Below are positions 1 to 56,956 of a stretch of DNA of 64,000 nucleotides, one piece after another (the stretch's first letter is position 1; each line of letters opens with the position of its first letter). The DNA lies in assembly GCA_000146465.1 (NCBI GenBank), contig CP001945.1; one strand, written 5' to 3'. A model generated the notes under the pieces. The model searched no databases, had not been told where the DNA came from, and saw nothing but the letters and a program-made list of their open reading frames with translations. A program made the position numbers and the translations under genes.

Positions 1-2490
<2,490 letters not shown>

Positions 2491-2519
2491 AAAAAAATTC
2501 CCCCCAATCTCTCAAATAC

Positions 2520-3811
2520 TGATCCTGCTGCTGGTTCTCCAACAGCAGCCATGTTACGACTTATATCTTATCTAACACGAAGGACTCAGACCTTCCAATC
2601 TTCGTCCACTGCGTCATCTTAGATAGCGACGGGCGGTGTGTACAAAGGACAGGGACCCATTCAAAACAACTTGTTCAATCGTTATTACTAGGAATTCCAC
2701 GTTCAGAAGCCCATTACACAGCTTCATCCCTCACAGCAGGCTCCCTCGCCATCTATCGTAGTGCGCGTGCCGCCCGCTTCATCTCAGGGCATAACGGACC
2801 TGTTCTGTTCCATTCCTCCCTTGCCCCAAAGAGCACTGTCAAAGGGTCTCACATCTTACGCAACTTAATCCAAAGCTCACGCCATCCATTTCAAACGGCC
2901 ATGCACCACCGCCGCGCGCATCCCGTCCTCGTTCTCCTGCCCGCTTCAGAACCGGTAAGTTGCCCCGCGTTGAGTCAAATTAAGCCGCACACTCCACTCC
3001 TTGTGGTGTCCTTCCGTCAATCTCTTCAAGTTTCACTCTTGCGAGCATACTATCCCCAGAACCCACATACTCAAGATTTCTCATGCACAACACTATATAG
3101 TCCCGTCCAGTCGGCATCGTTTACTGCTAGAACTAAAACGGTATCTAATCGATTTCGATCCTCTAGCCTTCGTCCTTCATCGTCACATAAGTCCAAGAGC
3201 ACAGCCTTCGCTTCTGTCCGTCCAGTCAGGGTCTTCGTATTTCACCCCTCGCCCAACTATCCGGTGCCCCTCGTCCTCTGCCAAACCTCTTACATCCACA
3301 TCAGGACATAATCCCCCAAACAAAGACATACAAAAGACTACGGACTTTTTAACTGCAGCATTCACCATAGACACTATTGGAGCAGGTATTACCGCGGCTG
3401 CTGGCACCCGACTTGCCCTCCAATCAATCTCGACTCCTTTACACTCGAAAAAAACTCACTTCTCATAACCGCCTCCCCAAAGGATTAGGCAAGTTTCGCG
3501 CCTGCTGCCATCCTTGGACGTAGTAGCCATCTCTCAGGCTCCCTCTCCGGAATCAAACCCCGATCCCCCGTCTCCCGTCTCCGCCTAGTTAGGCCATTAC
3601 CCTAACTACCAGCTGATAGGCCTACAACTTACTTGGCTCGTGTCAAAAACACTCCTAGCCCCCTACCTGCAGTTTCCCGCAGTTACAGCTCTCCCGCCAA
3701 CCAAATCATCGTACTATCACTGAGCCGTCCGTCAATCCCCCACAAGGTTCATCAACATGCATGGCTTAGTACCAGAGAATAGCAACCACGTCAGGCAGAA
3801 TCAACCTGGTG
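2520..3811 (-). rRNA. SSU rRNA, complete, about 1292 nt (microsporidian-sized 16S-like)
   Basis: The 5' end CACCAGGTTGATTCTGCCTGAC is the reverse complement of 3790-3811. The 530-loop GGTGCCAGCAGCCGCGGTAAT is the reverse complement of 3385-3405. CCTTTGTACACACCGCCCGTC is the reverse complement of 2629-2649. The 3' end ...AACCAGCAGCAGGATCA ends at 2520. A short ITS (about 2491-2519) follows before the LSU. Confidence 0.9.
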
Positions 3812-35127: not shown

Positions 35128-36306
35128 TTAAAAACCATTCTTTATATCAAACAGGTCTAGAATAACACATATAGTTATAAGGAATCCCGTAGAAAGAAGA
35201 TCAGAAATCGATGAAATAAGTGGAAGTGCCAAGACTCCTGTGTCTTCTTCTTTCTTATCTAAATACTCAACAAGGAGGGAAATCCCACTCAGCAAAATTG
35301 TAACCTGGAAAACAAAAGATATTATAAACAATACACAGAACTCACGTGAGTATAGAATCCCCATTAGTGCTGCCATTCCAAGATAGCATAGAGACATGAG
35401 TATGGAAGCTAATACCAATGTTATATATGACTTTCTACTGTTATGAATTGTCCGATTATTGATCGATGTAAATATCCTGTGAAGATAAATGAATGCTATT
35501 GATACAGACATTCCACCAAACACAGGAAACGACGGCGCAAGAACTGGGAATCTAGTGGAAAATGTCTCAAGTACGTATCCACTAGCAGTACTAATTCCAT
35601 ATGTTGCAAGAAGAACCTCCACCGGCTGAAGAGGAATTCTCTTTTTACTGACTAGTACAAAGCAGAGACACAAAGGCATCAAGGAGATTGAGAGGAAAAT
35701 GTATGAAAGACAGGATGACGGGGAGGAGTCCCTAAACCATTTGGTAAAGTATACCAAAGACCTTACATTCGTGTAATCTCCAAAAGATGATATGGTAGGG
35801 AGAATGATATTGTCTGGATTGATGTCCATAAATTTTGACAGCTCTATAGATATTACAAGCAGTATAATGAACAAGATCGAAGTCAATATGCACGATACAA
35901 GTGCACCTGCAAGTATGGAAAGTCCTAGTCCTTCGCTCAATCCTCCTGATAAAATGCCTCCTGCCATCCCTATTAGTCCTATTACAAGTCCTATTGCTAC
36001 AGACTGTGCCAAAACCATGCTAGAGTTGTCAAAGACATATCTGAAGTACCTCCTATATATGAACAAAGGAGATTGACTCATCGACGAAAGATACATCGCA
36101 AATGTTAGTTCTATGTTGCCCTTGAATGCCAAAATGCAGTTTGCTTCGAGAATCACAGGGACGCCTGCTAAGCGGGGATCATCGGTGGCATCTATCAGTA
36201 CGGATCCCATGAGGATCAAGCCACTCAGCGATATAAGTAATCCTGGAATTGATTGTATTAGCAGGGAGGAATCATACAGTGACATATTGAACAAGTCCCC
36301 AAACAT
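35128..36306 (-). CDS. SLC41/MgtE-family divalent-cation (Mg2+) transporter, two internal repeats
   Basis: Two MgtE-like TM repeats, each with a D-x-x-P-D/L...P...S-x-GD motif (DINPDNIILPTISSFGDY and DTGVLALPLISSISDLLS). The track ORF starts on TTG; ATG at 36306. Confidence 0.65.
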   Translation of the reverse strand: MFGDLFNMSLYDSSLLIQSIPGLLISLSGLILMGSVLIDATDDPRLAGVPVILEANCILAFKGNIELTFAMYLSSMSQSPLFIYRRYFRYVFDNSSMVLAQSVAIGLVIGLIGMAGGILSGGLSEGLGLSILAGALVSCILTSILFIILLVISIELSKFMDINPDNIILPTISSFGDYTNVRSLVYFTKWFRDSSPSSCLSYIFLSISLMPLCLCFVLVSKKRIPLQPVEVLLATYGISTASGYVLETFSTRFPVLAPSFPVFGGMSVSIAFIYLHRIFTSINNRTIHNSRKSYITLVLASILMSLCYLGMAALMGILYSREFCVLFIISFVFQVTILLSGISLLVEYLDKKEEDTGVLALPLISSISDLLSTGFLITICVILDLFDIKNGF

Positions 36307-36595
36307 CAATTCGGGCCTCTGAGTTTGTTAAGAAGAAAAAGTTTCGCAAGCACCAATAATGCTTTATGGAAGGGTCCAACGCTCCATTCCATGGGGTTTC
36401 AAATGCTTTGAAATCATTGATGGACGTGATGAAAGAAAGTAGGAGAATCCTATGAAGAGTGGAGAGGAAACCCTTGTTTCATTTTCAAACATAAGGAGGC
36501 CTTGTGTTCGTAGGACCTGGAATTTCAACAGGCTTGTGGAATTTCTTTTAGGTTGAAACCTTTTGAAAACAACACCCATATAATCAATCCAGAGC

Positions 36596-37330
36596 ATGGA
36601 AAAATCAAATGCGAGCTTTAATTTCGACAAAATACCGAAGTTCATAATGAAGCTCTATAAGGCCACCAATAACGAGAAGTACAAAGGAATCTCCTGGACA
36701 CCCGATGGGCTTAAGATTCACATATATGACCGAGACGTGTTTGTTAAGGAGACACTTCCCCTCATATCGAAGACAAGGGAGTTTGGAACGTTTGTCCGGA
36801 TGTTGAACAGTTACGGGTTTGTTAAGTCCAAGGACATTGAAGAGGAGGACATATATTACAATAAGAACTTCAGAAAGGGAAGAGAGGACCTGCTGGGGTT
36901 TGATGATACACTCCGAATGATTAAAAGGAAGAAGTCCAATGATATTCGAATGAGAATTGGAGATGGATCTTTGAAGGACGTAGTGGAGTATTTATACGTA
37001 CAAAACCAGGAGTTATATACAGAATTGTCTGCTTGCAAGGAGCGCATAGAGAGGCAGGAGAGAGCCCTCAATGGTCTTATAGAAATTCTTTCAAGGGTCT
37101 TTAGAACAAATTCCCAGGACTTCGGGGCTCGGATTAAACCCAATGCTCATAATCTCCACGACGAAATGGACCTTTTTCTTGGAGAGCTTTCAGGGCCTCT
37201 CAAAGAAGGGTATGAGCCGCCTTCTCCTGATGTGCAAGGGAAAGGCATCCCTGAACTGTCCTTTAAGCCAGGAGAAAATTTTCAAGTAGATTCCGACTCT
37301 AAGAACGACAGGTATGATGCTTTCTTCTAG
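36596..37330 (+). CDS. HSF: Heat shock factor (HSF-type winged-helix DBD + coiled coil)
   Basis: FIMKLYKATNNEKYKGISWTPDGLKIHIYDRDVFVKETLPLISKTREFGTFVRMLNSYGFVKSKD...NFRKGREDLL matches the HSF DBD consensus (FL.KLW...I.WS..G.SF.V.D...F...VLP.YFKH.N..SFVRQLN.YGF.KV...F.KG..DLL). A coiled-coil segment follows. Confidence 0.8.
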   Translation: MEKSNASFNFDKIPKFIMKLYKATNNEKYKGISWTPDGLKIHIYDRDVFVKETLPLISKTREFGTFVRMLNSYGFVKSKDIEEEDIYYNKNFRKGREDLLGFDDTLRMIKRKKSNDIRMRIGDGSLKDVVEYLYVQNQELYTELSACKERIERQERALNGLIEILSRVFRTNSQDFGARIKPNAHNLHDEMDLFLGELSGPLKEGYEPPSPDVQGKGIPELSFKPGENFQVDSDSKNDRYDAFF

Positions 37331-45081: not shown

Positions 45082-45196
45082 CGAATTTATAGCCCCCGTA
45101 GCTCAGTCGGTTAGAGCGTGGTACTTATATGCTGGAAAGCTGTGCAATACTTGGTTTATACTGCTAAGATATGCCAAGGCCGCGGGTTCGAGTCCC
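45082..45196 (+). tRNA. tRNA-Ile (anticodon TAT) with a 41-nt intron at the canonical 37/38 position
   Basis: 5' exon GCCCCCGTAGCTCAGTCGGTTAGAGCGTGGTACTTATA, intron 45120-45160, 3' exon ATGCCAAGGCCGCGGGTTCGAGTCCCGCTGGGGGCA. Anticodon stem TGGTA/TGCCA, loop CTTATA|A. Eukaryotic tRNA-Ile(UAU) genes characteristically carry an intron. TTTT follows at 45200. Confidence 0.85.
45120..45160 (+). other. tRNA intron (41 nt) within tRNA-Ile(TAT)
   Basis: Inserted 1 nt 3' of the anticodon. Removing it restores the anticodon stem pairing. Confidence 0.8.
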
Positions 45197-45258
45197 GCTG
45201 GGGGCAGTTCTTTTCTTCTAATATTCTATAGTTTCTTTTAATTCCTTTGGCTTTCTTC

Positions 45259-53005: not shown

Positions 53006-53740
53006 CTATACAAATTTCTGTATCCTCTCCCTCTTCTTTCTTCCAACCACCTCGACAAAGCTATCTTCTACTGTCTTTTCTCCTTGTGACGCCTCCACAC
53101 CCTTCCAAACTCTTCTGGGCCCCCGAACAATACACCTTCTGGGCTCTGGGAGTATCCTAGTCCTCTCAATTCCCACCCTCACCAGCTTTGCAATTTCTTC
53201 CCATAATTTTTTAATGATTTCGCTCTGGAGGTTTAACATCTCATCGATAGATTCGTAGACATTGCACATGTGTTTGTACCACTTTTGAACATCTATATCC
53301 CCCCTTTCCCATGCATCAGGACATAAAAAACCTCCCGTGTATTCATATCCAAAAATATATGAGAAATACATCTTATCTTCGTCGAAATCTTCTCCCTTCC
53401 GGAAGTATCTATGGAAGTAGATGTGTGAGTTCACGTACTCTCTTTTCTGGAATCCAAAAGTAAATAAAATATCTTCGAGATCTCTTCTTTTCATCTTCAC
53501 CATCTTAGAACCGTCCAAGGCATCTGGAACTCCTACTTTTCCGCACACTTCAAATGCTCGTCCATCTTCAACCCATTTCAGCACCTTGTTCCTGTCGTTC
53601 TCGAGTTTCCCATGGATAAATCTTACTACAGATAGATAATAGATGTACTTTTCTCTCCTCCCATCAATATCCTTCCTCATCCAAAAATCCTCAGAAGGGA
53701 TATCAATGTCTATCTTTTCTCCTGAAAACAGAAAATCCAT
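53006..53740 (-). CDS. Divergent HSF-type DNA-binding-domain protein (paralog)
   Basis: YLSVVRF...VLKWVEDGRAFEV...DLEDILFTFGFQKRE...YFRKGEDF follows the HSF DBD pattern (I.W...G..F.V...F.R.LN.YGF.K...F.KG.D). A coiled-coil and a K/R-rich tail follow. Confidence 0.5.
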   Translation of the reverse strand: MDFLFSGEKIDIDIPSEDFWMRKDIDGRREKYIYYLSVVRFIHGKLENDRNKVLKWVEDGRAFEVCGKVGVPDALDGSKMVKMKRRDLEDILFTFGFQKREYVNSHIYFHRYFRKGEDFDEDKMYFSYIFGYEYTGGFLCPDAWERGDIDVQKWYKHMCNVYESIDEMLNLQSEIIKKLWEEIAKLVRVGIERTRILPEPRRCIVRGPRRVWKGVEASQGEKTVEDSFVEVVGRKKRERIQKFV

Positions 53741-53755
53741 GTAGCATTTGTAGAT

Positions 53756-54505
53756 TTATTGAAAGTCTTGGACAATATCATTGAACTTATGCCTTTTCAC
53801 CTTCAGGTTCACAGTTATTCCCGAAGTCTTCTTGACTTTCTCCTTCTCCTTTTTCTTCGGAGGGGACTTTTGGGGAACCTTGGGAACCTCCAAATCTCCA
53901 ACCTCATCGAGGAATCCAAACGAGCAGTTTGCATTGTCTTGGAAATATCTCTTTGCCCATTCTAACATCGATTCCTCAAACTCAATCTTGTTACTTGGAT
54001 CGTAATTTATGCTTTTAAATTCATGATACGGCTTCAATGTCTTCATGTGCGAGCACAAAGAAAACAGAGAATCCCGAAGTTTTGAAATCTTTTTCTCGTT
54101 TTCTCTAAGTCTTCCAATCATTTGAGGAACCTCGCTCATCATGATGCGGATGTTCTCATTCATCGAATCGATCTCTTCCTTAGGTATCTCCCTGTCGCTT
54201 TTATGGTTCACCTTGTATATCATACCAAGGAAATTCTTCTTCTGCCTTTGGAAAAATTTGTTATAATACTTCAGTCCAGATCTTCCAATCTTCTTGAATC
54301 CATAGCTCTCCAGAAGCCTTTTAAATTCTTCTATTCCAGTACAAAATCCAAAAAACGGCCCGGTAATAAATCTAAACATCCCGGGGTTCCTTATAACAAT
54401 GCATCGTCCGCTTTTACTCCATTCAATTGCTGTGAAACGAGTACTGTCCACCATCTCATATAGTATCTCTATTTCCTTTTCTACGGACTTTGATTTCCCA
54501 ACCAT
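53756..54505 (-). CDS. HSF-type DNA-binding-domain protein (paralog)
   Basis: ILYEMVDSTRFTAIEWSKSGRCIVIRNPGMF...EEFKRLLESYGFKKIG...FFQRQKKNFL matches the HSF DBD. A coiled-coil (IGRLRENEKKISKLRDSL) and a K-rich C-terminus follow. Confidence 0.6.
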   Translation of the reverse strand: MVGKSKSVEKEIEILYEMVDSTRFTAIEWSKSGRCIVIRNPGMFRFITGPFFGFCTGIEEFKRLLESYGFKKIGRSGLKYYNKFFQRQKKNFLGMIYKVNHKSDREIPKEEIDSMNENIRIMMSEVPQMIGRLRENEKKISKLRDSLFSLCSHMKTLKPYHEFKSINYDPSNKIEFEESMLEWAKRYFQDNANCSFGFLDEVGDLEVPKVPQKSPPKKKEKEKVKKTSGITVNLKVKRHKFNDIVQDFQ

Positions 54506-54525
54506 TCTTTCAAGGACTTTTCAGA

Positions 54526-55569
54526 CTAAACATTTTTGGCTTTCCTGGACTTTGAATCTACATACTTCACTCCATCCTTAAAAAGGCGGAAAAGCATCTT
54601 ATACACACTGTTCTGAGACAGCCCACACAGCTCAATTTCAAAACTGCTCGAGATGGTAATCTGGGCTCTCTTCCTGGCCGTCCCATCTCTGGAATCTAGC
54701 CGTCTCGACATCTTCCTTATAAACACTTCAAAGATTATTTTGTATTCCTTGCTTATCTCCAGACTGCAAAGCCTCTCCAGCACTCTAATCGACTTGTCAA
54801 ATCTCCCGTGCTTCATCCATGCCAAGCACACAAGAAACTCATCCCACATGGTCTCTCTCCTTTCTTCAACTCCTAGGATCTTTCCAAGGCGATGCAGAAC
54901 ACCTTGGGAATACCGGTCTCTCTTTTCTAATTCTTCTCCAAGAAACTTCCTTGTAAACTTGAAGTATCGTACAAGACAAGGATACATGGAGGATAGTTCC
55001 ACAAGCTTGGGCAACGCCAGTCTCCCAAAATACTCTTCTGGTGCATTCCTTCGCACATTTTCAAATAGATCCAGATCCCCAACCCCGAAATCCTTTTCAT
55101 AGGCCCTGTACCTTGGAGATTGTAAGATAAGCGCTTGTAGGGCATCCCTGCGATATTTACTCTTTGTCCTGTATACGTGGTAAAATACAATATCGTTGTT
55201 CTTAAAGAATCTCGAAAACACACACACATATCTTACTGCAAGATCACTGATTCTTGGGTCTGTAGAGTAGAACATATGGAGGATGTTTGTGTCCACCTCC
55301 TCCACATGCTTACTAACCTTCTCGAGATACTTCAGTGCTAGGGATTTGGCAATCCGATTCTTTGCATGGAATAACTGCCCCATCTTCCTGATTCCACCCC
55401 TTATGACCTCTTTTTGCGAGGTGGACTTTATGATCCTCTTCAAATTCGACAGACCTACCTCGATATCAGAATAAGAGGAATCTGGAGAAATATCTATCTT
55501 TAGGAGCTTCTTCAAATGTGTGTTCGGCTTCATGAAATGGGTTTTAGAAGAAGGGATTAAATAAGACAT
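54526..55569 (-). CDS. Hypothetical helical protein (347 aa)
   Basis: The track ORF starts on TTG; ATG at 55569. All-alpha. No confident family. Confidence 0.45.
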   Translation of the reverse strand: MSYLIPSSKTHFMKPNTHLKKLLKIDISPDSSYSDIEVGLSNLKRIIKSTSQKEVIRGGIRKMGQLFHAKNRIAKSLALKYLEKVSKHVEEVDTNILHMFYSTDPRISDLAVRYVCVFSRFFKNNDIVFYHVYRTKSKYRRDALQALILQSPRYRAYEKDFGVGDLDLFENVRRNAPEEYFGRLALPKLVELSSMYPCLVRYFKFTRKFLGEELEKRDRYSQGVLHRLGKILGVEERRETMWDEFLVCLAWMKHGRFDKSIRVLERLCSLEISKEYKIIFEVFIRKMSRRLDSRDGTARKRAQITISSSFEIELCGLSQNSVYKMLFRLFKDGVKYVDSKSRKAKNV

Positions 55570-55758
55570 TAACAAATCGATGCTTTCAGAGTAACTATGA
55601 CAACTGGCATTACAAAATGCTGGTTAGTGCCTCATCATTAAGCATTGTCAGAAGATTCCTCCGCCAAGCTCCCGAGGAAACTGGTACTCGGAGGATATCC
55701 TCTGCTAGGGGCTATGGAAAGACCTATTTAATAAAAGTAATTTTCTCTTGGCAAGCCC

Positions 55759-56247
55759 ATGTCCATAGAGAACAAGCCATTCAGTTTTACATATATTATC
55801 CGTAACTTTCATAGAATAATTTCCAAGGGAAAGGATGGAGCAGCATGGAGTCCTTGCGGGAGAGAAGTTATAATTACAGACTCTGCCAAGTTCCAACGGT
55901 TCCTCGAGAAATTGTCAAGAAAAAAAAAAGGCTCGAAGCTAGACTACCTGAAAAGAAATGGCTTTATTCGGGGAAAGACAATGAACCAGAAATCGGTTTT
56001 CTCCCATCCATGGTTTGTAAGAGGGCAGAAAGATCTCCTGAAGAACTTCACGCTCAAAAACTCCTTCTGTTGGTCACAGGGGATACAGATGGGAAGCCAT
56101 GGAGAACCTGATGACCCACTGGACTCATTGAAGCTAGGGTTGTTTGATTTGGGAAGAACATTGTTCAATCTCCGGAACAGTTGTTTAGATTTGAATTCGC
56201 ATATTCAGCTTCTTTTTAATATGGCTAAGTCTAAATCATGTGAGTAA
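55759..56247 (+). CDS. HSF-type DNA-binding-domain protein (short paralog)
   Basis: AAWSPCGREVIITDSAKFQRFL...LDYLKRNGFIRGK...VFSHPWFVRGQKDLLKNF matches the HSF DBD C-terminal half including the F.HP.F..GQ.DLL.NI signature. ATG at 55759, preceded by CCC. Confidence 0.6.
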   Translation: MSIENKPFSFTYIIRNFHRIISKGKDGAAWSPCGREVIITDSAKFQRFLEKLSRKKKGSKLDYLKRNGFIRGKTMNQKSVFSHPWFVRGQKDLLKNFTLKNSFCWSQGIQMGSHGEPDDPLDSLKLGLFDLGRTLFNLRNSCLDLNSHIQLLFNMAKSKSCE

Positions 56248-56305
56248 CTGGAACAGTGAGTTTTGACGATGGTGGGGGATTTAACCCTTTGTGAAGAGTG
56301 AAGGG

Positions 56306-56956
56306 ATGAAAAGCAGAGAGAGGGTTTTGGAGGACATAAGAAACAGATTGAGGACACTGCTGTCGAGCAGGAAGTGCATAGGCATGGAAAGCATAAGAGA
56401 TGACTTTTTTTTTATGATAACAAATCCTAAAATCTTCGACGAGCTAGTGATGGAACCGGTCTTTTCTTGCAATAAATATTGGGAGTTTAAGAGACTAATG
56501 TATCTTTGTGGATATTCGCATATCAATAGATGTATGTTCATGAAGGGAGGAGAAAAGGAAGGCCGAGCCCCTAGTATACTTCTTAAGAGGCCTGAAGAAA
56601 AGGATCTTTTGCGTTTTGAAGAAGCCTTGGAAGATCTGCGGAAAAAGTATTTAGATCTTGAAGAGATTCTGGACGATGTATGGGACAGACTGGATAATAT
56701 AGATGGTGCTCTTGAAAGATCCATGGGAGCAATACGGGATGTATTTAACAAAGGAGCAGAAGTCTCAGGAGTTGATCTCCAAGAAATAAATGGACTTGTT
56801 GATTCACTAATGAAATATGATGAGTCGGAGTCCATGGATACATTCAGCGAGGGAGCAACTCCGGAAGAATCCGATATAGAAGCATTTTCGTCCTCCTCAG
56901 AGGAGGGCCACACAAAGGTGTTGGAAAATAAAGAAAAGAAGATCAGTTTCTTTTAG
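56306..56956 (+). CDS. HSF-like protein (divergent DBD + coiled coil + acidic tail)
   Basis: IFDELVMEPVFSCNKYWEFKRLMYLCGYSHI...FMKGG resembles HSF helix-3 and wing (F..EVLPKYFKH.N..SFVRQLN.YGF...F.KG). A coiled coil (LRFEEALEDLRKKYLDLEEILDDVWDRLDNIDGALERSM) and an acidic C-terminus follow. The track ORF starts on GTG; ATG at 56306. Confidence 0.45.
   Translation: MKSRERVLEDIRNRLRTLLSSRKCIGMESIRDDFFFMITNPKIFDELVMEPVFSCNKYWEFKRLMYLCGYSHINRCMFMKGGEKEGRAPSILLKRPEEKDLLRFEEALEDLRKKYLDLEEILDDVWDRLDNIDGALERSMGAIRDVFNKGAEVSGVDLQEINGLVDSLMKYDESESMDTFSEGATPEESDIEAFSSSSEEGHTKVLENKEKKISFF

What the first reader, a model, noticed from the sequence alone, without database searches (positions are those of the whole stretch)
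53006..56956. Tight cluster of divergent HSF-type DNA-binding-domain paralogs, plus a canonical HSF 16 kb upstream
Five genes in this 64-kb window encode HSF-type winged-helix DBDs followed by coiled-coil segments: 36596-37330, and in the cluster 53006-53740, 53756-54505, 55759-56247 and 56306-56956. Three of them (53006-53740, 53756-54505, 55759-56247) carry the DBD pattern through the trailing F.(HP).F.KG..DLL signature; 53006-53740 lacks the HP, and 56306-56956 reaches only FMKGG. The genes at 53006 and 53756 are tandem on the minus strand 16 bp apart. The genes at 55759 and 56306 are tandem on the plus strand 59 bp apart. They are separated by a single orphan gene. Microsporidia have an extremely reduced transcription-factor repertoire, so a locally duplicated and rapidly diverging HSF family looks like a lineage-specific regulatory expansion. 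The short paralogs may lack trimerisation or activation regions and could act as competitors at HSE sites.
Basis: partly seen in the sequence, partly recalled or inferred. Interest (0 to 1): 0.6.

Follow-up and report, generated by a model that had tools for sequence, protein, structure and literature searches.

The report
Divergent heat-shock-factor-like gene cluster
Four fast-evolving genes packed into 4 kb of Encephalitozoon intestinalis chromosome IV are all diverged copies of the parasite's one conserved heat-shock-factor-type regulator; two were not recognised before, and the whole set is present in some human-infecting Encephalitozoon species and deleted in others.

Summary

The cluster is not specific to E. 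intestinalis. The same five-gene block lies between the KRR1 and UAA-transporter genes in E. cuniculi and in three unnamed relatives. All four HSF-like genes are missing from that locus in E. hellem, E. romaleae and Ordospora, which keep only the middle gene.

The middle gene is therefore not an orphan. A conserved C/D-box snoRNA candidate sits beside it.

The four proteins change amino acids about three times faster than their neighbours but stay under constraint. All keep a heptad-repeat helix. None keeps the base-contacting arginine across orthologs, so competition at heat-shock elements is unlikely. Altered DNA specificity or action through oligomerisation fits better.

These are new members of a known family, of moderate interest.

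The parts
36596..37330 (+). Conserved microsporidian HSF-type gene (ADM11324, annotated 'heat shock transcription factor', 244 aa). DBD at about 36641-36895, followed by a heptad-repeat helix and an acidic tail ending in ...DAFF.
   Evidence: PF00447 E=5.7e-18. phmmer against human HSF1 DBD structures gives E=2.4e-10. It keeps R71, N74, Y76 and K80 in HSF1 numbering. The L010 ortholog is 48% identical.
53006..53740 (-). Eint_040460, publicly 'uncharacterized'. The public start at 53680 gives 224 aa. It is a degenerate HSF-type domain (about 53390-53635) followed by a long helix. Ortholog of ECU04_0520.
   Evidence: No Pfam hit. Leave-family-out HMM E=3.4e-6, orthologs down to 1.9e-9. hhalign against HSF 84-87%. 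tblastn of the L009 ortholog against the L010 HSF gives E=8e-6 over 151 aa. AF2 and Foldseek: the top 23 matches are all HSF-family (HSF/Skn7) DBDs.
53756..54505 (-). Eint_040470, publicly 'heat shock transcription factor-like protein', 249 aa. DBD at about 54218-54469 plus a heptad helix. This is the cluster member closest to the conserved HSF.
   Evidence: PF00447 E=3.1e-9. hhalign against HSF 97%. The E. cuniculi ortholog P0007 is 52% identical.
54526..55533 (-). Eint_040480, the middle gene (335 aa). It is not HSF-related. It is conserved in every relative sampled, including those without the HSF-like genes.
   Evidence: 70% identical to the E. cuniculi ortholog. Orthologs in L002-L004, L006-L008, L010 and L011. 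No Pfam, NCBIfam or PDB match. hhalign against the HSF families 0.4% or less.
55580..55645 (-). C/D-box snoRNA candidate in the spacer between 480 and 490. It has a terminal stem ATGCTT/AAGCAT, a C box AUGAUGA and a D box CUGA. A 12-nt guide is complementary to the window's own LSU rRNA.
   Evidence: A block of about 65 nt is nearly invariant in five species. Sequence shown. Rfam matches are below gathering (SNORD64 27.1 bits, E=0.0025). Complement in the LSU rRNA at 900-913. The core is exact in 8 loci and has one mismatch in Ordospora.
55759..56247 (+). Eint_040490, 162 aa (UniProt: HSF-type DNA-binding domain-containing protein). A very basic DBD at about 55807-56052 plus a short heptad helix, with no C-terminal tail. 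Ortholog of ECU04_0550.
   Evidence: PF00447 E=1.3e-5. hhalign against HSF 91-95% and against 470 93-97%. DBD net charge +6 to +15.
56306..56956 (+). Eint_040500, publicly 'uncharacterized', 216 aa. The N-domain (56306-56545) is the most degenerate HSF-like one. It is followed by a strong heptad helix (residues 98-152) and an acidic, Ser-rich tail ending in ...FF. Ortholog of ECU04_0560.

Best explanation
The four cluster genes (Eint_040460, 040470, 040490 and 040500) are diverged paralogs of the conserved microsporidian HSF-type factor at 36596-37330.

Origin and history. They arose by local duplication around the KRR1/Eint_040480 locus in a common ancestor of Encephalitozoon and a few close relatives. 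They have been kept as intact, constrained but fast-evolving genes in at least five species. Both flanking pairs were deleted in the E. hellem/E. romaleae lineage.

Architecture. Each protein is a winged-helix domain of the HSF type followed by a heptad-repeat helix.

Inferred mode of action. They act as coiled-coil oligomers whose DNA-binding domains no longer read the canonical nGAAn heat-shock element. 040470 and 040490 keep strongly basic domains and probably still bind DNA, with a changed specificity. 040460 has helix 2 replaced by a beta-hairpin in the model. 040500 has lost the beta-1 tryptophan, has a neutral or acidic domain, and in one species has lost the domain altogether. These two are more likely non-canonical partner or modulator subunits. 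They would work through the helix and their conserved C-terminal tails, with each other, with the adjacent gene's product or with the conserved HSF.

Shown: homology, architecture, synteny, the presence/absence pattern, relative rates and residue changes. Inferred: DNA binding, hetero-oligomerisation and any regulatory role.
For: Homology:
- Pfam.
- Leave-family-out HMM.
- hhalign network: HSF-470 97%, HSF-490 95%, 470-490 97%, HSF-460 84%, 470-500 85%, with controls at 0.4% or less.
- Structure models built from ortholog-only alignments, matched first to HSF DBDs.

Conservation of the block. The order UAA|500|490|480|470|460|KRR1 is found in E. cuniculi, L007 and L008 and L009+L011.

Deletion. 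Only the 480 ortholog lies between UAA and KRR1 in E. hellem, E. romaleae, L006 and O. colligata, with spacers of 124-397 bp and no remnants. In the tree the hellem clade is nested inside the cluster-bearing taxa, with support 0.965-1.0.

Local origin. In the most basal relative (L010) the conserved MgtE-HSF pair lies directly beside 480-KRR1.

Constraint. pN is 0.28-0.33 against pS 0.71-0.77, and the ORFs are intact in five species.

Heptad helices.

Residues. R71 is kept only in the conserved HSF. The DBD pI is about 10-11 for 470 and 490, and 4.6-8.7 for the three full-length 500 orthologs. In L008 the 500 ortholog lacks most of the domain but keeps the helix and tail.
Against: - There are no expression, binding or interaction data.
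- The evidence for 040500 is weaker: one hhalign link at 85%, a mean pLDDT of 63, and Foldseek E-values of only 0.02-0.5.
- The AF2 alignments have only four sequences, so the 'helix 2 replaced' feature of 040460 may be a modelling artefact.
- 470 keeps a basic residue at or next to the R71 position in all orthologs, so HSE-like binding by 470 is not excluded.
- Absence of these genes elsewhere in the E. hellem and E. romaleae genomes was shown exhaustively only for 040500. For the others it rests on the syntenic locus and on word-indexed searches that demonstrably miss orthologs.
- Ordospora's lack of the genes may be primary absence, because the relevant node has only 0.58 support.
Confidence: 0.6

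Rival explanations
1. The short paralogs are still HSE-binding domains that lack oligomerisation or activation regions. They compete with the conserved HSF at heat-shock elements.
For: Three of the four domains are basic. 470 keeps Lys or Arg at or next to the R71 position, and K79/K80 equivalents. 040490 is short and has no tail.
Against: The base-reading arginine is D/G/N/D in 490, D/K/D/T/G in 460 and R/K/N/R in 470. All four families keep a heptad helix. HSE triplets are not enriched in the window and none is intergenic. The only 2-site motif in the cluster's divergent spacer is not conserved in the other species.
Confidence: 0.1
2. The proteins have left transcription altogether. A winged helix plus coiled coil could be used as a scaffold for another nucleic-acid or protein-binding role, comparable in architecture to Hop2/Mnd1.
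For: Architecture and size (about 160-250 aa, winged helix plus long helix, adjacent gene pairs) resemble paired winged-helix/coiled-coil proteins. There is a weak TBPIP/Hop2 hit for 040490 (E=0.072 over 21 residues). DNA-contact residues are lost.
Confidence: 0.15
3. The genes are redundant duplicates drifting towards loss and have no current function. Their deletion in E. hellem and E. romaleae would be the end point of that decay.
For: Amino-acid change is three-fold faster than in the neighbours. The genes were lost completely in one clade. The 500 domain is eroded in L008.
Against: All four ORFs are intact in five species that are only 60-77% identical in housekeeping proteins. pN is less than half of pS. 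Core fold residues (W37, G41, G77-F78, F104, K/R106-G107) and family-specific C-terminal motifs are conserved.
Confidence: 0.1
4. Eint_040500 alone is not HSF-derived. Its N-domain would be an unrelated small alpha/beta domain that AlphaFold2 and Foldseek place near HSF and ETS folds by chance.
For: There is no Pfam hit. hhalign against the conserved HSF gives only 3-4%. The family HMM gives E=0.08-0.35 for the E. intestinalis and E. cuniculi proteins. No Foldseek match reaches E<=0.001.
Confidence: 0.2

Closest known systems
Microsporidian 'Hms2-like' HSF-domain protein (N. ceranae NCER_100004; the window's own gene at 36596-37330)
   Same: Same domain order: an HSF-type DBD followed by a heptad helix and a short tail, at about 160-250 aa, with no long activation domains. 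It is the probable parent of the cluster by profile similarity and by its adjacency to 480-KRR1 in L010.
   Different: The parent is conserved across microsporidia (PMC6531884 Table S1) and keeps all DNA-contact residues. The cluster genes are confined to a small clade, evolve about three times faster and have lost the base-reading arginine. That the window's gene is the paper's XP_003072684.1 is inferred from accession order and was not checked.
Fungal HSF-type paralog set (S. cerevisiae Hsf1, Skn7, Hms2, Mga1, Sfl1)
   Same: One DBD fold has been reused by several paralogs with different targets. Skn7 recognises a different element with the same fold (PDB 5d5w/5d5x appear among the structural matches).
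   Different: The yeast paralogs are dispersed, ancient and keep the recognition-helix arginine (my own knowledge). Here the copies are clustered, young and degenerate. No receiver domain is present.
Entamoeba histolytica EhHSTF1-7
   Same: This is another reduced parasite with a multi-member HSF family (PMC11050682, abstract seen).
   Different: Those factors are reported to bind HSEs. The paper was not read beyond its abstract, and no clustering or degenerate-domain claim is known to me.
HSF DBD crystal structures (human HSF1 5d5u/7dcj, HSF2 7dci/5hdk, HSF5 8zys, K. lactis 3hts)
   Different: Sequence identity is 12-21%. 040500 lacks the beta-1 Trp and has a shortened wing. The 040460 model has strands where helix 2 should be.

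Membership tests
HSF-type DNA-binding domain family (Pfam PF00447) | Match to the family profile above the curated threshold | tested here: met
   Met for 36596-37330 (65.7 bits), 040470 (37.7 bits) and 040490 (26.0 bits), against a cut-off of 22. Not met for 040460 and 040500. The best ortholog scores are 16.6 bits (E=0.011) for 460 and 13.3 bits (E=0.12) for 500. Those two are linked to the family only by profile-profile, custom-HMM and fold evidence.
HSF-type DNA-binding domain family (Pfam PF00447) | Winged-helix topology alpha1-beta1-beta2-alpha2-alpha3-beta3-beta4 | tested here: inconclusive
   The 040500 model has H2-20, E27-30, E35-38, H41-53, H58-67, E70-74 and E77-80, which is the expected order. 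The 040460 model has two strands (49-52 and 60-63) in place of alpha2. Both models rest on 4-sequence alignments, with domain pLDDT about 70-87. 470 and 490 were not modelled.
HSF-type DNA-binding domain family (Pfam PF00447) | Recognition-helix arginine that reads the G of nGAAn (human HSF1 R71 in SFVRQLN; that it is the base-specific contact is from my own knowledge of the HSF1-DNA structures) | tested here: not met
   It is kept in the conserved HSF (window and L010). It is R/K/N/R in 470, D/G/N/D in 490, D/K/D/T/G in 460 and R/K/K in 500 (from the alignment).
HSF-type DNA-binding domain family (Pfam PF00447) | Heptad-repeat oligomerisation region (HR-A/B) directly after the DBD | tested here: met
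   A crude a/d-position score beats 99-100% of shuffles for all 490 and 500 orthologs and for 2 of 4 470 orthologs. It is weaker for HSF (p=0.02-0.05) and for 460 (p=0.01-0.44). AF2 predicts long helices at 98-152 (500) and 131-174 (460). The oligomeric state was not tested.
HSF-type DNA-binding domain family (Pfam PF00447) | Binding to inverted nGAAn repeats | not testable with these tools
   Only motif counts were possible. There are 3 triplet HSEs in 64 kb against 1.9-2.05 expected, all inside coding sequence.
Canonical HSF1-type heat shock factor | Long protein with HR-C and C-terminal transactivation domains in addition to the DBD and HR-A/B | tested here: not met
   The best candidate (36596-37330) is 244 aa, and its only Pfam domain is the DBD. 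PMC6531884 concludes that microsporidia lack canonical HSF and retain only Skn7-like and Hms2-like proteins. Activation domains have no profile, so this rests on length and on that paper.
Hop2/Mnd1-type winged-helix plus coiled-coil pair (considered and rejected) | Match to the TBPIP/Hop2 (PF07106) or Mnd1 profiles | tested here: not met
   The only trace is PF07106 at E=0.072, 13.5 bits (cut-off 22.8), over 21 residues of 040490.

The most novel reading that the evidence does not exclude
The four genes may form one self-contained, dispensable regulatory module derived from HSF. In this reading there are two DNA-binding subunits with new specificities (470 and 490). Each is encoded next to a degenerate partner (460 and 500) that hetero-oligomerises with it through the heptad helix. 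The module would control a programme that E. cuniculi and E. intestinalis need and that E. hellem and E. romaleae abandoned. That would explain why both pairs, on opposite sides of a retained gene and snoRNA, were deleted in the same lineage.
Probability: 0.15. Interest if true: 0.6.

Novelty: new member of a known kind. Interest (0 to 1): 0.4.

Why it matters
The one published survey of HSF-like proteins in microsporidia that I found lists two per genome (Skn7-like and Hms2-like) and concludes that canonical HSF is lost (PMC6531884). Together with the Skn7-like gene that survey lists (not examined here), E. intestinalis and E. cuniculi would carry six HSF-type genes. Four of them lie in one 4-kb block, and two of those four are labelled 'uncharacterized' in public records.

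In genomes with about 2,000 genes and very few transcription factors, four extra factor-like genes form a noticeable part of the possible regulatory repertoire. They also differ between human-infecting species, being present in E. cuniculi and E. intestinalis and absent from the locus in E. hellem. This gives a concrete, small set of candidates for species-specific regulation. It also offers a natural example of how an HSF-type domain degenerates after duplication.

It does not explain the heat-shock response seen in Nosema/Vairimorpha ceranae. The V. ceranae locus around KRR1 is not syntenic and shows no match to these families.

Tried and rejected
- Pairwise BLASTP between cluster members is not significant. 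Homology is visible only with profiles.
- Profile searches of PDB sequences with two-sequence alignments of 460 and 500 found no HSF.
- NCBIfam gave nothing.
- The word-indexed protein search found only the query for 040460, and only E. cuniculi for 040470. It missed orthologs that exist, so it cannot be used as evidence of absence.
- I tested whether the mirror-image gene order reflects an inverted duplication of a two-gene cassette (470+460 against 490+500). The inner pair is related (470-490, 93-97%). The outer pair shows no specific similarity (460-500, 0.2%). The idea is not supported.
- hhalign on the C-terminal halves alone gave no significant link between families. The shared tail endings (...FF in HSF and 500; D[IF]xxV(V/x)G...EF[QV] in 460 and 470) therefore remain an eye observation.
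- I looked for remnants of the four genes in the E. hellem, E. romaleae, L006 and Ordospora spacers by blastn and tblastn. None was found apart from the snoRNA block.
- I looked for HSE enrichment. None was found.
- dN/dS itself is unusable because synonymous sites are saturated. Only pN against pS is reported.
This was solved by retrieving the same proteins through the exhaustive search and the cluster look-up.
- No paper mentions any of the locus tags searched: ECU04_0520-0560, ECU04_0410, Eint_040460-040500.

Full report
**What the window is.** Exact protein look-ups place the window on chromosome IV of Encephalitozoon intestinalis ATCC 50506. It begins with the rDNA unit: LSU at 27-2407 and SSU at 2517-3811, both on the minus strand. 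It is therefore a chromosome end.

The finding's five ORFs exist as described. Their public names are as follows.
- ADM11324: 'heat shock transcription factor' (36596-37330).
- Eint_040460: 'uncharacterized' (53006-53740; the public start at 53680 gives 224 aa).
- Eint_040470: 'heat shock transcription factor-like protein' (53756-54505).
- Eint_040490: 'uncharacterized' at NCBI, 'HSF-type DNA-binding domain-containing protein' at UniProt (55759-56247).
- Eint_040500: 'uncharacterized' (56306-56956).

Three of the five were therefore already recognised as HSF-type. Two were not.

**Check of the observation.** Pfam PF00447 is significant for 36596-37330 (E=5.7e-18), for 040470 (3.1e-9) and, just above the cut-off, for 040490 (1.3e-5). 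It finds nothing for 040460 or 040500. Pairwise BLASTP between cluster members is not significant, so profiles were needed.

I collected orthologs by synteny (see below) and ran four tests.

1. Local hhalign of ortholog alignments gives these probabilities: HSF-470 97%, HSF-490 91-95%, 470-490 93-97%, HSF-460 84-87%, 470-460 63% and 470-500 85%. HSF-500 is only 3-4%. The unrelated middle gene scores 0.4% or less against all families.
2. I built an HMM from human and K. lactis HSF, the conserved microsporidian HSF and the 470 and 490 families only. I searched it against all 805 ORFs of 80 aa or more in the window and loci L001-L010. It ranks the five 460 orthologs immediately after the training sequences (E from 1.9e-9 to 2.4e-3). 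The L007 ortholog of 500 is the next hit (E=5e-4). The E. intestinalis and E. cuniculi 500 proteins fall into the noise (0.08-0.35).
3. tblastn links a 460 ortholog to the conserved HSF over 151 residues (E=8e-6).
4. I made AlphaFold2 models from alignments containing orthologs only, so no HSF sequence was supplied.
   - For 040460, the first 23 Foldseek matches are again all HSF-family (HSF/Skn7) DBDs. The model shows two strands where helix 2 should be.

A heptad pattern follows every domain. It is strong in 490 and 500 and weaker in 460.

I conclude that 470, 490 and 460 are HSF-type paralogs with high confidence, and 500 with about 75-80% confidence. Only 490 has the HP...DLL signature.

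**Comparative genomics.** E. cuniculi has the same block between the UAA transporter and KRR1. Its orthologs are 47% (460), 52% (470), 70% (480), 50% (490) and 55% (500) identical by BLASTP local alignment. Three of them (the 460, 490 and 500 orthologs) are ECU04_0520, ECU04_0550 and ECU04_0560.

I used KRR1 as an anchor. The full block is also present in two unnamed microsporidia assembled from SRR29713748 (L007) and SRR21023573 (L008), and in a third from SRR21633403, split over two contigs (L009 and L011).

In E. hellem, E. romaleae, a romaleae-like assembly (L006) and Ordospora colligata, only the 480 ortholog lies between UAA and KRR1. The spacers there are 124-397 bp and hold no remnants.

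A neighbour-joining tree of KRR1, HECT and 480 (1,341 columns) gives (V. ceranae,(L010,(O. colligata,((L007,L008),(L009,(E. cuniculi,(E. intestinalis,(E. hellem,(E. romaleae,L006))))))))). Support is 0.965-1.0 for the Encephalitozoon nodes and 0.58 for the node that excludes Ordospora.

The cluster therefore predates the genus. The hellem/romaleae lineage lost both pairs while keeping the gene between them. Ordospora either lost the cluster or never had it.

In the most basal relative (L010) the conserved MgtE-HSF gene pair lies directly next to 480-KRR1. In E. intestinalis that pair is 16 kb away, at 35128-37330. This fits an origin of the cluster by local duplication of the conserved HSF.

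An exhaustive phmmer search of 1.84 billion representatives with 040500 finds only four proteins: itself, E. cuniculi, L011 and L007. That family is truly confined to this small clade.

**Rates.** Between E. intestinalis and E. cuniculi, synonymous sites are saturated (pS 0.65-0.77). Nonsynonymous differences are 0.28-0.33 for the four genes, against 0.11-0.17 for KRR1, UAA, HECT and 480. The four genes are fast but constrained, and they are intact in five species.

**What the residues say about mechanism.** Fold-core positions are kept in HSF, 470, 490 and 460. In HSF1 numbering these are W37, G41, G77-F78, F104 and K/R106-G107. They are only partly kept in 500.

The arginine of the recognition helix (R71) is the base-specific contact to GAA in the HSF1-DNA structures. 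That statement is from my own knowledge. R71 is kept only in the conserved HSF. It varies among orthologs in all four cluster families.

The 470 and 490 domains are strongly basic, with net charge +6 to +15. The 460 domain is moderately basic (+1 to +10). Among the three full-length 500 orthologs the domain is neutral to acidic (pI 4.6-8.7). In L008 the 500 ortholog has lost most of the domain but retains the heptad helix, the acidic tail and the terminal FF.

HSE triplets occur 3 times in 64 kb against about 2 expected, and all three lie inside coding sequence.

Together this argues against competition at HSEs. It favours altered DNA specificity for 470 and 490, and action through oligomerisation for 460 and 500. 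None of this was tested functionally.

**Literature.** PMC6531884 reports that microsporidia lack canonical HSF and have only a Skn7-like and an Hms2-like protein. Its Table S1 lists one of each for E. intestinalis. By accession order the Hms2-like entry is probably the 36596 gene. This is an inference.

No paper in the library mentions any of the locus tags searched (ECU04_0520-0560, ECU04_0410, Eint_040460-040500). Searches combining microsporidia with HSF-type factors or PF00447 also returned nothing relevant.

**Side finding.** The 225-bp spacer between 480 and 490 contains a block of about 65 nt that is nearly invariant in five species. Read on the minus strand (55580-55645), it has a 6-bp terminal stem, a C box AUGAUGA, a D box CUGA, and a 12-nt guide complementary to the window's own LSU rRNA at about 900-911. 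Rfam matches are below gathering: SNORD64 at 27.1 bits (E=0.0025), and a SNORD46 match over the guide and D box at E=1.6. The core is present just upstream of the 480 ortholog in every relative, including those without the HSF-like genes.

**Limits.**
- Absence of 460, 470 and 490 elsewhere in the genomes that lack the cluster was not tested exhaustively.
- The structure models rest on four-sequence alignments.
- The tree is distance-based, on three proteins.
- The unnamed species cannot be identified with these tools.

Noticed in passing
window 55580-55645 (-): A C/D-box snoRNA candidate lies in the 480-490 spacer. It has a terminal stem ATGCTT/AAGCAT, a C box AUGAUGA, a D box CUGA and a guide GTCATAGTTACT complementary to the window's LSU rRNA (900-913, minus strand). 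By the D+5 rule the predicted target is the A at position 907. It is nearly invariant in all relatives and always sits just upstream of the Eint_040480 ortholog. It is below Rfam gathering scores.
   Followed up: partly
window 27-3811 (-): A complete rDNA unit (LSU 27-2407, SSU 2517-3811) lies at the start of the window. It explains the 50% G+C and the strong negative GC skew there, and it marks a chromosome end.
   Followed up: partly
L010 1273-6042 (JGI metagenome contig Ga0596931_0001986): In the most basal relative sampled, the MgtE gene and the conserved HSF gene lie directly beside the 480 ortholog and KRR1. In E. intestinalis the same divergent pair is at window 35128-37330, 16 kb away. 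This is a possible trace of where the cluster's founder copy came from.
   Followed up: partly
window 53681-53740 (-), and L007 7313-7981: The 20 codons upstream of the public start of Eint_040460 (…GEKIDIDIPSEDFW…) resemble the N-terminus of the L007 ortholog (…LDKFEIMIPGDLME…). A Logan gene call (P0002) also uses the longer 244-aa form. The public 224-aa model may start too late.
   Followed up: no
C-termini of the proteins at window 36596-37330, 53006-53740, 53756-54505 and 56306-56956, and their orthologs: The paralogs share family-specific tail endings. The conserved HSF and the 500 family end in an acidic stretch plus ...[FL]F. The 460 and 470 families carry D[IF]xxV(V/x)G about 15 residues before a terminal ...[DE]F[QVI]. 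The 490 family has no tail. These may be docking motifs. They were not significant by hhalign.
   Followed up: partly
L008 4108-4623 (-): The Eint_040500 ortholog in this species is only 171 aa. Most of the HSF-like domain is gone, and only 36 bp separate it from the next gene. The heptad helix, the acidic tail and the terminal FF remain.
   Followed up: partly
window 45092-45206 (+): Rfam reports a 115-nt tRNA match (57 bits) that ARAGORN does not report. It may be an intron-containing tRNA gene.
   Followed up: no
window 54526-55533 (-) and orthologs (alignment A6): Eint_040480 is a well-conserved 335-aa protein, 41-71% identical to the E. intestinalis protein across the seven orthologs aligned. 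It has no Pfam, NCBIfam or PDB-sequence match. Its function is unknown.
   Followed up: partly
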